This document shows, in pieces, positions 20,259-22,745 of a stretch of DNA of 64,000 bases. The position numbers were made by a program, and so were the translations under genes. Source of the DNA: a bacterium (GTDB lineage Bacteria; Patescibacteriota; Dojkabacteria; SC72); NCBI GenBank assembly GCA_022840695.1, contig JALHDC010000002.1:91374-155373 (forward strand). Direction: 5' to 3'. The notes below the pieces were generated by a model. That model saw only the letters and a list, made by a program, of their open reading frames with translations. It ran no database searches and was not told the DNA's origin. Position 1 is the first letter of the stretch. Every line of letters starts with the position of its first letter.

Positions 20259-22745
20259 ATGAAAATTACTTCAAAGACGATAGCAATAATATCTTCCATA
20301 GTAGTGGCAGGAAGTGCTGGAGGAATGTACTACTTATCCAATCAAGATGAGCCCGAAGTATTAGCGTGGGTAGATACTAGCTGGACTTTTAGAAGATCCG
20401 TTGATGTTGCAAATAGCAGTGGAGATACATTAACAAATGAGGATGTATTAATAACTCTTGATACAGCGAGTCTGGTATCTGCTAACAAACTACAATCAGA
20501 TTGTGACGATCTAAGGCTTGTAGACACAGATGATGCTACATATCTATCATTTTGGTTAGAAAATGAATGCAATGTTTCAGAGACTAGAATATGGGTACAA
20601 GTTCCGAGCTTACCTGATGGTGGTAAAAGTATATATGTTTATTACGGTAATGATAGTGCAGTAAATACTGAAGAGAGTTGGAGTGGCAATTTTATTTCAT
20701 TAAATGATGATACCTGTCCAACCGGATGGAGCTATTACTCTACTTTAGATCAGAAATTTCCATTAATCTCTGCAACAGCAGGAACAACAGGAGGGGCAGA
20801 TTCACATACTCACGGGAATTATTCTAGAACTACTGGAGGAAGTGGAGGAAGTGGCATATATTGGAGGTCAGGAACAACTGCATACCTCTCTTCTACGCAT
20901 GCACATTCATACACTATAGTAACTAATAGCTCATCTGTTTTGCCCCCATATCTTGATATACCATTTTGTGCAAGCGAAAATTTTAATCCTAACACGGGAA
21001 TGATTACACTGTTTCTTAATACTGTTCCCACAGGATGGACAAGATTTTCTGCGCTTGATTCGAAATTTCCAAGATCAAATGAGACATATGGAGGAACTGG
21101 TGGAGCATCCACACACAAGCACACATTTAATTCAGGAACTACTGGATCTGCTGGACCTAGTCCGAAAGGAAGCGGAAGCTACTATCAAGCAGGAAAGAGT
21201 ACACATACGCACACATGGAGTGGAGGGGACCTTTCCACAAACAACAATATTCCACCATATAAAGCAGTCGTCTGGGGAGAATCCAATGATGCAACTCTTC
21301 TCGATGGTATCCTAATGCTTGCAACAGCTGTTCCACCACTCGGTTGGACGCAAAACAACTCTGTTGATGAATATTTCCCATATGGTTCTGCCTCCTACGG
21401 TACTACAGGTGGTGCATCCACACATACACATACAGTACCAAGCGGATCTACTAACACTGTTGGAGGGTCCGGATCAGTAGGTTCAGGAACCGGCTTGCTT
21501 TGTGGACCTTCACATTCTCATAACTTAGGAAGCTTCACTACTAACTCACAAAGTAACTACCCACCATACATTTCATTTAATTTAGTTGAAAGAAAAACTT
21601 CCGTCGCTATAACAGTACAAACAGAGGAAACAAGTAATACTACAACGAATCCTCCTTCCTCTTTGCTCACAGAAGGAGAAACTAACCCTACACTGGTTGT
21701 AGATACAACTCCTGAATTTTCTGCCGTTTTCAGTGACCCAGACGCCGAAGATACTGGCAACTTCTACAGAATACAGGTAAATACAAACCAAAGCTTCAAT
21801 GGAACTGAAATGTGGGATTCAACAAAAACCGCACTTGACCCTGTATTAACAAATGGAGCTAGATCTCCAGATATTTCATATGCAGGTACAACACTAGCAT
21901 GGGGCACAACATACTACTGGAGAATGAAGTTTTGGGACAACAATGAATTTGCATCAGAAAGTCCTTGGTCAGCTACTGCAAATTTTACGATGAATCATCA
22001 AGCAAATGCTCCTACATCTCTTCTTACAGAAGGATCTACAAATCCTTTAAAAACATCTCTAACTCCGTATTTCTCGGCAATCTTCGAAGATGGTGATGCA
22101 ACAGATACTGGAACTCACTACCAAATTTTAGTAAATACTGCATATGATTTTACAGGAACAACTATGTGGGATAGTACAAAAACTCAATTTGGATCACCCA
22201 TAACAAATGGATCAAGATCTTCAAATATTACATATGCAGGAACAACTTTAGAAGAAGGTACGGCATATTATTGGAAGATAAGATTCTGGGACGAGAATGA
22301 TTTAGAAAGTGTATATTCAGGAGTGGCAAATTTTTTGACTGAATCTGGCCCATCTGCACCATCCGGATTACTTTTTGATGGCAGACCAAACCCAACATAT
22401 CTGCTCTCTACAACTCCACCATTTTCAGCGATATATTCTGATATTAATGGAGATAGTGCATCTGCATACCAAATTAATGTAAACAGTAACAATCTATTTA
22501 CAGGAACAGTAATATGGGATTCAGGAAAGCAGTCTATAACTGTTGCAAATGGAGCAAGGTCATCAGATATAACATATGATGGAACAGAATTAATAAACAG
22601 TAAGAATATATATTACTGGAGAATTAGATTCTGGGACAGCGACGATATGGTCGGGGAATGGTCCTCTACATCATACTTCACAGATTCCACAGTACCTCAA
22701 TTTATAATGGAAGGACTCTCTCTTCAAGGAATAAAGATAGATTAG
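20259..22745 (+). CDS. large secreted/membrane-anchored repeat protein: DUF2341-like N-domain, 3 phage-tail-collar (MdpB)-like repeats, 3 FN3-like repeats
   Basis: 828 aa. N-terminal anchor. WVQVP...IYVYYGN is DUF2341-like. Three repeats carry PTGW...TGGASTHTHT...N.PPY. Three ~115-aa repeats carry WDS.K and YYW[RK][IM][RK]FWD. Confidence 0.75.
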   Translation: MKITSKTIAIISSIVVAGSAGGMYYLSNQDEPEVLAWVDTSWTFRRSVDVANSSGDTLTNEDVLITLDTASLVSANKLQSDCDDLRLVDTDDATYLSFWLENECNVSETRIWVQVPSLPDGGKSIYVYYGNDSAVNTEESWSGNFISLNDDTCPTGWSYYSTLDQKFPLISATAGTTGGADSHTHGNYSRTTGGSGGSGIYWRSGTTAYLSSTHAHSYTIVTNSSSVLPPYLDIPFCASENFNPNTGMITLFLNTVPTGWTRFSALDSKFPRSNETYGGTGGASTHKHTFNSGTTGSAGPSPKGSGSYYQAGKSTHTHTWSGGDLSTNNNIPPYKAVVWGESNDATLLDGILMLATAVPPLGWTQNNSVDEYFPYGSASYGTTGGASTHTHTVPSGSTNTVGGSGSVGSGTGLLCGPSHSHNLGSFTTNSQSNYPPYISFNLVERKTSVAITVQTEETSNTTTNPPSSLLTEGETNPTLVVDTTPEFSAVFSDPDAEDTGNFYRIQVNTNQSFNGTEMWDSTKTALDPVLTNGARSPDISYAGTTLAWGTTYYWRMKFWDNNEFASESPWSATANFTMNHQANAPTSLLTEGSTNPLKTSLTPYFSAIFEDGDATDTGTHYQILVNTAYDFTGTTMWDSTKTQFGSPITNGSRSSNITYAGTTLEEGTAYYWKIRFWDENDLESVYSGVANFLTESGPSAPSGLLFDGRPNPTYLLSTTPPFSAIYSDINGDSASAYQINVNSNNLFTGTVIWDSGKQSITVANGARSSDITYDGTELINSKNIYYWRIRFWDSDDMVGEWSSTSYFTDSTVPQFIMEGLSLQGIKID

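What the first reader, a model, noticed from the sequence alone, without database searches (positions are those of the whole stretch)
20259..22745. 828-aa secreted multi-repeat protein: DUF2341 + 3 tail-collar-like + 3 FN3-like repeats, a candidate host-attachment protein
After an N-terminal anchor there is a DUF2341-like module (WVQVP...IYVYYGN). Three ~100-aa repeats each contain [CV]PTGW...F...(Y)GGTGGASTH[TK]HT...N.PPY, reminiscent of phage tail collar / MdpB receptor-binding domains (GW box, histidine-rich THTH, C-terminal N.PY). Three ~115-aa repeats carry WDS.K, TYAGT and YYW[RK][IM][RK]FWD, which resembles the FN3-like N-terminal domain of GH78 rhamnosidases. Gly, Ser and Thr are abundant and Cys is nearly absent. 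In a small-genome, possibly episymbiotic bacterium, a large surface protein built from phage receptor-binding modules is a strong candidate adhesin. The combination of modules is unusual.
Basis: partly seen in the sequence, partly recalled or inferred. Interest (0 to 1): 0.65.

Follow-up and report, generated by a model that had tools for sequence, protein, structure and literature searches.

The report
Surface protein with phage-fibre-tip triplet
This gene encodes a conserved cell-surface protein of the tiny uncultured Dojkabacteria; its most variable part is three fused copies of a domain that phages use, as a three-chain assembly, at the tips of their tail fibres to recognise hosts, which makes it a plausible but untested attachment protein.

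Summary
Pfam confirms DUF2341 and three Rha78A-N (FN3-like) domains. The three 103-aa HxH repeats hit no Pfam, NCBIfam or PDB sequence directly, PF07484 included. A repeat profile links them remotely to phage fibre-tip domains: hhalign 88-90% to the solved tail fibre 9nxk (shuffle maximum 1.5%) and 98% to collar-type sequences.

The module family is large (3,346 cluster representatives). It occurs as one copy at the C-terminus of fibre-like proteins or as arrays of 3 or 6, never 4 or 5. AlphaFold models the triplet as one rigid body, so a single-chain pseudo-trimer is likely but not proven.

The domain combination is not unusual in this lineage. It is a core, syntenic, single-copy Dojkabacteria (CPR) gene with over 100 orthologous clusters. 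It evolves faster than its neighbours, and the loops between the conserved histidines are hypervariable.

All 35 orthologs also end in a previously unnoted C-terminal tag.

An adhesin or receptor-binding role is plausible but untested. I rate it a new variant of a known kind, of moderate interest.

The parts
20259..22745 (+). Whole ORF, 828 aa plus stop codon. Core syntenic Dojkabacteria gene, named 'DUF2341 domain-containing protein' in NCBI orthologs.
20271..20339 (+). N-terminal hydrophobic helix (aa 5-27) preceded by Lys2 and Lys6. Probably an N-in/C-out signal anchor. Cleavage at AGS|A is not excluded.
   Evidence: AF2 helix 5-27. Equivalent helices occur in family members. The weak Pilin_N hit (E 0.0087) is below threshold.
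20367..20687 (+). DUF2341 beta-sandwich (aa 37-143) with the invariant pair Cys82/Cys104. It is among the most conserved parts of the protein (58% identity to orthologs).
20688..20996 (+). Fibre-tip-like repeat R1 (aa 144-246): CPTGW, GGADSHTH, STHAH, LPPY. Invariant pair Cys153/Cys237. Hypervariable loop at about aa 190-212.
20997..21305 (+). Fibre-tip-like repeat R2 (aa 247-349): VPTGW, GGASTHKH, STHTH, IPPY. Hypervariable loop at about aa 293-315.
21306..21614 (+). Fibre-tip-like repeat R3 (aa 350-452): PPLGW, GGASTHTH, PSHSH, YPPY. Hypervariable loop at about aa 396-418.
21615..21656 (+). Thr/Ser/Pro-rich linker (aa 453-466).
21657..21998 (+). FN3-like domain 1 (Ig_Rha78A_N, aa 467-580).
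21999..22349 (+). FN3-like domain 2 (Ig_Rha78A_N, aa 581-697). Matches PDB 6i60 rhamnosidase residues 30-137.
22350..22691 (+). FN3-like domain 3 (Ig_Rha78A_N, aa 698-811).
22692..22742 (+). C-terminal tail carrying the tag FIMEGLSLQGIKID-COOH (aa 815-828). Pattern: phi-[ED]-G-phi-x-phi-x-G-phi-x-phi-[DN] at the free C-terminus. Disordered in the monomer model.

Best explanation
The gene encodes a constitutive, extracytoplasmic, membrane-tethered surface protein that is a core component of Candidatus Dojkabacteria (CPR/Patescibacteria).

Order of parts:
1. An N-terminal transmembrane helix.
2. A conserved DUF2341 beta-sandwich.
3. Three tandem copies of a domain remotely homologous to the C-terminal receptor-binding tip of phage tail fibres and baseplate proteins (the collar / T4 gp10_C / gp12 / gp37-type HxH fold).
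4. A conserved stalk of three FN3-like domains.
5. A conserved C-terminal tag.

In phages the tip domain works as a homotrimer. Here three copies in one chain most likely fold into one compact pseudo-trimeric knob. The twelve conserved histidines (two HxH per repeat) would hold the scaffold together, possibly through metal sites like the His6 Fe/Zn sites of fibre tips. The three hypervariable Gly/Ser/Thr-rich loops would form the ligand-binding surface.

The most likely job is specific recognition of a surface polymer, such as a glycan or wall component, on a partner or host cell or on a substrate. That would make it an adhesin or receptor-binding protein that evolves the way a phage receptor-binding protein does.

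Shown here: the anatomy, remote homology, copy-number rule, synteny, conservation pattern and native codon usage.
Inferred: the pseudo-trimer geometry, metal binding, topology, ligand and adhesion role.
For: Anatomy and known domains.

Remote homology of the repeat to fibre tips:
- The repeat profile A1 retrieves proteins that independently pass Pfam Collar (P0057, 33.1 bits against a cutoff of 24) and Gp10_C (P0055, 81 bits).
- P0056 matches the solved tail fibre 9nxk at E 4e-9, plus T4 gp37 2xgf, C24 6ov6 and gp12 1ocy.
- hhalign of A1 against 9nxk gives 88-89.5% probability, end to end with the same motif order. Sixty shuffles give at most 1.5%.
- hhalign of A1 against collar-type alignment A3 gives 98.4%.
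- UniRef names family member P0019 'Phage tail collar domain-containing protein'.
- Phage context: two triple-module proteins lie directly after the tape measure gene and fall in PHROG tail, tail collar fiber and tail fiber families.

Triplet as the functional unit:
- Among the top 147 representatives there are 140 tandem arrays of 3 and 4 arrays of 6, with none of 4 or 5.
- Single copies lie at the extreme C-terminus of fibre-like proteins.
- The AF2 model of the triplet alone has pTM 0.68 although 29% of residues are disordered. That requires all three ordered cores to be placed as one body.
- The whole triplet superposes on phage phiAsp2 Pas28 and Pas29 at TMq 0.61 and 0.57.
- HxH motifs from three chains form His6 Fe/Zn sites in gp37, gp12, pyocin fibres and gpV (PMC6116203).

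Binding role:
- The triplet is the least conserved region (32-36% identity, against 53-60% for DUF2341 and the FN3 domains).
- The inter-HxH loops are at 17-24% identity, while all 12 His are kept in 30-35 of 35 orthologs.
- The protein diverges faster than its neighbours (44-51% against 58-74%).
- The orthologous slot accepts large insertions inside the triplet (P0151; Gly_rich_2 in P0227).
- The module is also fused to an RHS toxin core in P0016.

Core gene:
- The synteny TyrRS-RelA-RecG-SpoU-gene-RsmD-ThrRS-IF3-L35-L20-PheST is identical in five genomes.
- GC3 and codon choice are native.

Extracytoplasmic location:
- An N-terminal helix and two invariant Cys pairs.
Against: - No direct Pfam, PHROG, NCBIfam or PDB-sequence hit exists for the repeats. 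Homology rests on profile-profile and transitive evidence.
- Foldseek of the triplet against PDB chains found nothing significant. The only weak hit was 6ov6_B (probability 0.10).
- Model coordinates could not be inspected, so pseudo-threefold symmetry and His6 geometry were not seen.
- The prediction that HxH loss should be all-or-none across the three repeats was not borne out. The losses fit independent binomial loss. The test has low power, because no site is ever fully lost.
- Positional identity of R1, R2 and R3 fades to random between distant family members.
- With an N-terminal anchor, the putative binding knob is membrane-proximal and the conserved stalk is distal. That is the reverse of the usual fibrillar-adhesin grammar (PMC8286594).
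- There is no experimental or expression evidence, and the ligand is unknown.
Confidence: 0.55

Rival explanations
1. The protein is a structural envelope component and not an adhesin. It would be a membrane-anchored strut whose FN3 stalk and C-terminal tag plug into the wall or S-layer. The triplet would be a rigid metal-stabilised spacer, and its loops would simply be unconstrained.
For: - It is a single-copy core gene embedded in a translation and housekeeping cluster in five genomes.
- Short intergenic gaps of 22 and 16 bp suggest constitutive co-transcription.
- The tag is universally conserved at the far end from the TM helix.
- The variable module is membrane-proximal if the protein is anchored at its N-terminus.
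Against: - Divergence is faster than in the neighbours and is concentrated in the loops of a domain type that phages use for recognition.
- The triplet accepts insertions of phage-type binding domains.
- The same module heads RHS toxins and sits in phage tail-tip proteins.
Confidence: 0.2
2. The protein is a type IV pilus-associated protein (MshQ / MJ1470-like), for example a pilus tip or accessory adhesin assembled with pilins.
For: - DUF2341 is annotated as a predicted component of type IV pili-like systems in large patescibacterial proteins (PMC11809585).
- There is a weak Pilin_N match at aa 8-69 (E 0.0087, 17.3 bits against a cutoff of 25.2).
Against: - The Pilin_N hit is below threshold.
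- The N-terminus MKITSK|TIAII lacks a prepilin peptidase motif: there is no G/A at -1 and no Glu at +5 (sequence).
- No pilus genes are seen among the long ORFs of the 64-kb window or in the conserved neighbourhood.
Confidence: 0.1
3. The gene is a domesticated prophage remnant, a tailocin fibre, or a recently transferred phage receptor-binding gene.
For: - The module is common in viral contigs (66 loci) and in phage tail proteins.
- The gene's GC is 39.4%, against about 31% for its surroundings.
Against: - Housekeeping synteny is perfect across divergent genomes.
- No phage genes lie nearby.
- GC3 is 0.247, against 0.22-0.24 in the neighbours, and synonymous codon choice is the same. The excess GC is at codon position 2 and therefore compositional.
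- There is no PHROG hit.
- The C-terminal tag is absent from all 66 viral loci.
Confidence: 0.03
4. The protein is a carbohydrate-active enzyme related to GH78 alpha-L-rhamnosidases.
For: NCBIfam rhamnosidase models and PDB entries 6i60 and 3w5n match the C-terminal repeats.
Against: - Only the roughly 100-aa N-terminal Ig domain of those enzymes matches.
- Scores are 106 and 73 bits against equivalog cutoffs of 1800 and 1720.
- No catalytic (alpha/alpha)6 domain is found anywhere in the protein.
Confidence: 0.02

Closest known systems
Phage tail-fibre / baseplate C-terminal tip domains: Pfam Collar PF07484, T4 Gp10_C PF21939, T4 gp12 (1ocy), gp37 tip (2xgf), tail fibre 9nxk, Bizionia C24 (6ov6)
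   Same: The motif order is the same along a domain of about 100 aa: G-phi-I-x-phi-(F/W), then P-x-G-W, F-P-x-G, GG, HxH, HxH and N-phi-P-P-Y-phi-x-phi-x-F. hhalign gives 88-98% probability. HxH motifs are the hallmark of metal-stabilised trimeric tips (PMC6116203). In phages the domain sits in tail-tip proteins.
   Different: The module does not reach any Pfam or PHROG threshold. It lacks the C-D-G that follows GW in canonical collar domains. It is present as three covalently linked, diverged copies (36-40% identical) in a cellular, membrane-anchored protein, and not as one copy per chain of a homotrimeric virion fibre.
Triple-module phage tail proteins (Actinoplanes phage phiAsp2 Pas28/Pas29; PHROG 5795)
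   Same: They carry the same three-copy arrangement in one chain. The whole triplet superposes at TMq 0.61 and 0.57, with E about 1e-12.
   Different: They are virion tail proteins encoded next to the tape measure gene. They have no TM helix, DUF2341, FN3 stalk or C-terminal tag. Sequence identity is 19-23%.
Fibrillar adhesins (adhesive domain + stalk repeats + anchor; Monzon et al. 2021, PMC8286594)
   Same: It is a single-chain surface protein with tandem FN3/Ig-like stalk domains, a distinct non-stalk module and a membrane or cell anchor.
   Different: The putative adhesive module is not on the known adhesive-domain list. Relative to the N-terminal anchor, the domain order is inverted. It has only three stalk domains and no LPxTG or other known C-terminal anchor.
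DUF2341-containing large surface proteins of Patescibacteria / MshQ-type proteins (PMC11809585)
   Same: It has a DUF2341 module directly after an N-terminal helix, and it comes from a CPR lineage. An adhesion role has been speculated for these proteins.
   Different: Those reports concern giant proteins (>4000 aa) with FhaB domains. No triple fibre-tip module or C-terminal tag has been described for them.

Membership tests
Pfam DUF2341 (PF10102) | HMM score at or above the gathering threshold (23.4 bits) | tested here: met
   52.8 bits, E 5.8e-14, aa 81-138. The domain is conserved in orthologs.
Pfam Ig_Rha78A_N (PF25788) | HMM score at or above the gathering threshold (27.4 bits) | tested here: met
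   144.7 bits, E 1.3e-42, three stretches. PDB 6i60 residues 30-137 match at E 2.7e-6. The fold matches FN3 arrays and rhamnosidase N-domains.
GH78 alpha-L-rhamnosidase | Catalytic (alpha/alpha)6 domain; NCBIfam equivalog score at or above the cutoff | tested here: not met
   106 and 73.5 bits against cutoffs of 1800 and 1720. Only positions of about 15-133 of the models match. There is no catalytic-domain Pfam hit.
Pfam Collar, phage tail collar domain (PF07484) | HMM score at or above the gathering threshold (24 bits) | tested here: not met
   No hit at E<=10 for the whole protein. None of the 38 single repeat units hits at E<=1.
Collar / Gp10_C / fibre-tip superfamily (remote homology) | Significant profile-profile similarity over the whole domain, with shared motif order | tested here: met
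   hhalign gives 98.4% (E 1e-14) against collar-type alignment A3, which contains a bona fide Pfam Collar member. It gives 88-89.5% (E 2-3e-6) against solved fibre 9nxk, while 60 shuffles reach at most 1.5%. Transitive hits reach Gp10_C.
Collar / Gp10_C / fibre-tip superfamily | Threefold (trimeric or pseudo-trimeric) assembly | tested here: inconclusive
   Arrays occur in sizes 3 and 6 only. The rigid-body AF2 model has pTM 0.68 and matches phage triplets at TMq 0.61.
Collar / Gp10_C / fibre-tip superfamily | His6 metal site built from one HxH per subunit | tested here: inconclusive
   All 12 His are conserved. However, HxH loss across the repeats fits independent loss and is not all-or-none. 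Metal content cannot be tested in silico here.
Fibrillar adhesin (PMC8286594) | Known adhesive domain plus stalk domains plus an anchor, with the adhesive domain distal to the anchor | tested here: inconclusive
   A stalk is present (3 FN3-like domains) and an anchor helix is predicted. The binding module is not a listed adhesive domain, and it is proximal to the N-terminal helix.
Type IV pilin / class III signal peptide | Prepilin peptidase site (G/A at -1, hydrophobic +1 onward, Glu +5 in bacteria); Pilin_N score at or above 25.2 bits | tested here: not met
   Pilin_N scores 17.3 bits. The N-terminus MKITSKTIAIISS lacks the motif.
Sortase / exosortase-type C-terminal sorting signals (LPXTG, PEP-CTERM and similar) | Motif followed by a hydrophobic helix and a basic tail | tested here: not met
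   The protein ends ...EGLSLQGIKID with no helix after the motif. No NCBIfam sorting-domain hit was found.

The most novel reading that the evidence does not exclude
The triplet is a single-chain mimic of a trimeric phage receptor-binding tip, stabilised by two pseudo-symmetric His6 metal sites. It would be used by Dojkabacteria, and more widely by CPR and other cellular lineages, as their principal host-recognition device, evolving by loop hypervariation and domain insertion the way a phage RBP does. In this reading the invariant C-terminal peptide phi-[ED]-G-phi-x-phi-x-G-phi-x-phi-[DN]-COOH is a new, non-sortase cell-surface anchoring or assembly signal of these monoderm ultrasmall bacteria. 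That would make the architecture a classical distal-adhesin / stalk / anchor design.
Probability: 0.3. Interest if true: 0.75.

Novelty: new variant of a known kind. Interest (0 to 1): 0.55.

Why it matters
How CPR/Patescibacteria recognise and hold on to their hosts is largely unknown, and Dojkabacteria have no cultured member. This analysis identifies a single, core, syntenic and fast-evolving surface protein whose variable part is built from a phage receptor-binding fold. That gives a concrete candidate for host-specificity determination that can be expressed, localised and tested.

More generally, a fibre-tip-like domain family with about 3,300 clusters at 50% identity is not covered by Pfam. 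It obeys a strict rule of one terminal copy or multiples of three, which would be a clear case of oligomer-to-repeat conversion.

The universally conserved C-terminal tag may point to an undescribed surface-anchoring or assembly route.

Tried and rejected
- **Direct profile searches on the repeats.** Pfam, PHROGs and NCBIfam found nothing. A sequence profile against PDB chains also found nothing.
- **Foldseek of the triplet model against PDB chains.** No significant hit. This is expected if the fold is an intertwined pseudo-trimer, but it is uninformative.
- **tblastn of the triplet against GenBank phages.** No match, probably because of low-complexity masking.
- **Alignment-based scan of GTDB genomes.** The single-protein scan found only one Dojkabacteria fragment.
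- **All-or-none HxH loss test.** No support for shared metal sites. The losses fit independent loss, and the test has low power.
- **Positional orthology of R1, R2 and R3.** Strong among close and moderate relatives and random among the most distant. A single ancient triplication for the whole superfamily is therefore not claimed.
- **Horizontal transfer or prophage origin.** Rejected on synteny and codon usage.
- **Rhamnosidase enzyme.** Rejected.
- **Pilin.** Rejected.
- **Promoter/terminator scan.** Fewer promoter-like sites than in shuffles, and nothing informative.
- **DNA tandem repeats.** None relevant.
- **Literature searches linking tail-collar domains to CPR or to C24.** Returned nothing.
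Full report
**1. Observation.**
The ORF at 20259-22745 (+) encodes 828 aa exactly as described.
- Motif scanning shows PxGW at aa 154, 257 and 360, an exact 103-aa period.
- There are six HxH motifs, two per repeat, and three PPY motifs.
- WDS and YYW occur three times each in the C-terminal half.
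- Composition is T 13.2%, S 12.9%, G 9.1% and C 0.6%.
- The three middle repeats are 36-40% identical to each other. Each scores E of about 1e-28 against the family profile.
- No DNA-level tandem repeat exists, so the repeats are old.

**2. Known domains.**
- Pfam gives DUF2341 (aa 81-138, 52.8 bits against a cutoff of 23.4) and three Ig_Rha78A_N domains (144.7 bits against 27.4).
- NCBIfam rhamnosidase equivalogs match only through their N-terminal Ig domain and fall far below cutoff.
- PDB 6i60 residues 30-137 align to aa 583-694.
- The full-length AlphaFold model has mean pLDDT 84.1, with 500 residues at 90 or above. It shows a helix at aa 5-27, a beta-sandwich at aa 44-129, three repeat cores and three beta-sandwich domains.
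- Its Foldseek hits are FN3 tandem arrays (contactins, fibronectin 10-12, titin) and GH78 N-domains.
- There is no catalytic domain, so the C-terminal half is a stalk and not an enzyme.

**3. The middle module.**
The direct searches all fail:
- PF07484 does not hit the protein at E<=10.
- No Pfam family related to collar domains hits any of 38 isolated repeat units at E<=1.
- PHROGs, NCBIfam and a profile search of PDB sequences are empty.

By its own criterion the module is therefore not a member of Pfam Collar. More sensitive tests do connect it to the phage fibre-tip superfamily:
- A 38-sequence single-repeat alignment (A1) retrieves P0057, which passes Pfam Collar (33.1 bits against 24). 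It also retrieves P0055, which passes Gp10_C (81 bits), and P0042, P0051 and P0056 with weaker hits to the same families.
- P0055 aligns to T4 gp10 (5hx2, 2fkk).
- P0056 aligns over its whole C-terminal domain to the solved tail fibre 9nxk (E 4e-9). It aligns more weakly to C24 (6ov6), the T4 gp37 tip (2xgf) and gp12 (1ocy).
- hhalign of A1 against the 9nxk tip gives 88-89.5% probability (E 2-3e-6), end to end with the same motif order. Sixty shuffles of the target reach at most 1.5% probability, with score 10.6 ± 1.9 against 37.9 for the real sequence.
- A1 against a collar-type alignment gives 98.4%.
- UniRef already calls the single-copy member P0019 (Ca. Nealsonbacteria) a 'Phage tail collar domain-containing protein'.

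**4. Size and grammar of the module family.**
An exhaustive HMM search finds 3,346 cluster representatives at E<=1e-3 and 399 at E<=1e-30.
- In the top 147 proteins, tandem arrays have 3 copies (140 arrays) or 6 copies (4 arrays). None has 4 or 5.
- The '2+1' cases are triplets with a domain inserted.
- In the first hit set, single copies always end the protein. They follow fibre-like N-terminal regions such as GGTG...AR.NLGLG.
- The module is common in viral contigs (66 loci).
- In a phiAsp2-like actinophage, two triple-module proteins follow the tape measure gene. They belong to PHROG tail, tail collar fiber and tail fiber families.
- One fragment, P0016, fuses the module to an RHS core.

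**5. Pseudo-trimer inference.**
Fibre-tip domains of this superfamily are obligate homotrimers. One HxH from each chain builds a His6 Fe or Zn site, as in gp37, gp12, R-pyocin fibres and gpV (PMC6116203).

Three observations point to a single-chain pseudo-trimer:
- The rule of one terminal copy or multiples of three.
- The AF2 model of aa 140-455 alone has pTM 0.68 although 91 of its 316 residues are disordered loops. That requires all three cores to be placed as one rigid body.
- That whole body superposes on Pas28 and Pas29 at TMq 0.61 and 0.57.

Several caveats apply:
- Coordinates could not be inspected.
- PDB chain-wise Foldseek found nothing.
- My test for shared metal sites, all-or-none loss of HxH across the repeats in 188 triplet proteins, gave the independent binomial pattern.
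- Positional identity of R1, R2 and R3 is strong among moderate relatives but vanishes among the most distant.

**6. Genomic and evolutionary context.**
- The window is from MAG GCA_022839185.1. Orthologs are named 'DUF2341 domain-containing protein [Candidatus Dojkabacteria bacterium]', and the only GTDB hit is a Dojkabacteria MAG.
- At least 140 clusters match at E<=1e-10. About 35 are full-length orthologs of 806-871 aa at 41-53% identity.
- The order TyrRS-RelA-RecG-SpoU-gene-RsmD-ThrRS-IF3-L35-L20-PheST is identical in the window and in L003, L071, L072 and L073. These include 724-kb and 760-kb contigs.
- The gene diverges faster than its neighbours: 44-51% identity, against 58-74% for RecG, SpoU, RsmD and ThrRS in the same genome pairs.
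- Its raised GC (39.4%) is entirely a codon-position-2 effect of composition. GC3 and synonymous codon choice are native.
- The window holds no paralog and no pilus or phage genes.

**7. Conservation map (34 orthologs).**

| Region | Identity to orthologs |
|---|---|
| DUF2341 | 0.58 |
| FN3 domains | 0.53-0.60 |
| Triplet repeats | 0.32-0.36 |
| Loops between the two HxH motifs | 0.17-0.24 |

- The 12 histidines are kept in 30-35 of 35 sequences. C82/C104 and C153/C237 are invariant.
- Longer orthologs in the same slot carry insertions inside the triplet, such as a roughly 430-aa insertion in P0151 and a Gly_rich_2 domain in P0227, or extra FN3 domains.
- This is the signature of a conserved scaffold that presents variable recognition loops.

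**8. C-terminal tag.**
- All 35 orthologs, and family members with other C-terminal domains, end in phi-[ED]-G-phi-x-phi-x-G-phi-x-phi-[DN]-COOH.
- In the window protein the tag is FIMEGLSLQGIKID, and it is disordered in the monomer model.
- No hydrophobic helix follows it, so it is not a sortase- or exosortase-type signal.
- In 827 kb of fetched DNA it occurs only on this gene's orthologs and never in viral loci.
- It may be an anchoring or assembly signal. If so, the protein would follow the classical fibrillar-adhesin grammar of distal binding module, stalk and anchor (PMC8286594). If the N-terminal helix is the only anchor, the binding knob is membrane-proximal. This topology question is unresolved.

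**9. Verdict.**
- The DUF2341 and FN3-like assignments are correct.
- The tail-collar resemblance is real but remote, and it fails Pfam membership.
- The architecture is standard for Dojkabacteria and not unusual.
- The best explanation is a core, membrane-tethered surface protein that uses a triplicated phage-fibre-tip fold as its variable recognition module, with probable adhesin or receptor-binding function (confidence about 0.55).
- The main rival is a structural envelope strut (about 0.2).
- I rate it a new variant of a known kind, with interest 0.55.

Noticed in passing
window 22701-22742 (aa 815-828); also the ends of the orthologous genes in L003, L071, L072 and L073: An invariant tag at the extreme C-terminus, phi-[ED]-G-phi-x-phi-x-G-phi-x-phi-[DN]-COOH (FIMEGLSLQGIKID in the window). 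It is present in all 35 orthologs and in family members with other C-terminal domains, and it is absent from viral loci. No TM helix follows it. It may be a new surface-anchoring or assembly signal.
   Followed up: partly
L008 917-7647 (IMG/VR contig, Actinoplanes phage phiAsp2-like): Two adjacent giant tail proteins (1295 and 936 aa, equivalent to Pas28 and Pas29) lie directly after the tape measure gene. Each carries a three-copy array of the same module. So phages also use the single-chain triplet, not only one copy per chain.
   Followed up: partly
L004 2178-3302 (IMG/VR contig): A small (374 aa) viral protein that consists almost entirely of one triplet of the module. It hits PHROG 5795 'tail protein'.
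   Followed up: partly
P0016 (426 aa, JGI fragment): The module (at least two copies, N-terminally truncated) is fused upstream of an RHS repeat-associated core and a C-terminal toxin-like region. This suggests use as a targeting domain of polymorphic toxins.
   Followed up: no
P0005, P0006, P0008, P0010, P0089 (about 480-520 aa): A separate subfamily carries the triplet directly behind a TasA/SipW-type signal peptide (…ALFTDTETS…) and in front of a conserved C-terminal domain of about 100 aa. Its taxon is unknown.
   Followed up: no
L073 5001-8762 (P0151, 1253 aa); P0227, P0231, P0232 and others: Orthologs in the same syntenic slot carry an insertion of about 230-430 aa between repeats 2 and 3. 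In several it is a Pfam Gly_rich_2 (PF21722) domain. Others have 4-5 FN3-like domains instead of 3.
   Followed up: partly
L003 8001-10725: The ortholog in this ENA long-read contig is split into several ORFs (529 + 101 + 187 + 64 aa), and the downstream housekeeping genes are fragmented too. This looks like frameshift errors of the assembly and not real pseudogenes.
   Followed up: no
L071 5262-5819 (-): In one Dojkabacteria genome a NYN-domain gene on the opposite strand is inserted between the SpoU methylase gene and the surface-protein gene. It is the only break in otherwise perfect synteny.
   Followed up: no
window 20259-22745: Gene GC is 39.4%, against about 31% for its surroundings. 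The excess is entirely at codon position 2 (0.515 against about 0.30), and GC3 is native (0.247). The composition profile alone could be misread as a foreign island.
   Followed up: yes
window 20283-20465 (aa 8-69): There is a sub-threshold match to archaeal type IV pilin N-terminal domain PF07790 (E 0.0087, 17.3 bits against a cutoff of 25.2). A small-residue cluster AGSAGG in the middle of the N-terminal helix recurs in close orthologs and could be a signal peptidase site or a helix-packing motif.
   Followed up: partly
family members and P0029: One family member hits the Bacillus YmaF family (PF12788) at 4.8e-7, and P0029 hits it weakly at E 0.17. YmaF may be a further distant relative of the fibre-tip-like module.
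   Followed up: no
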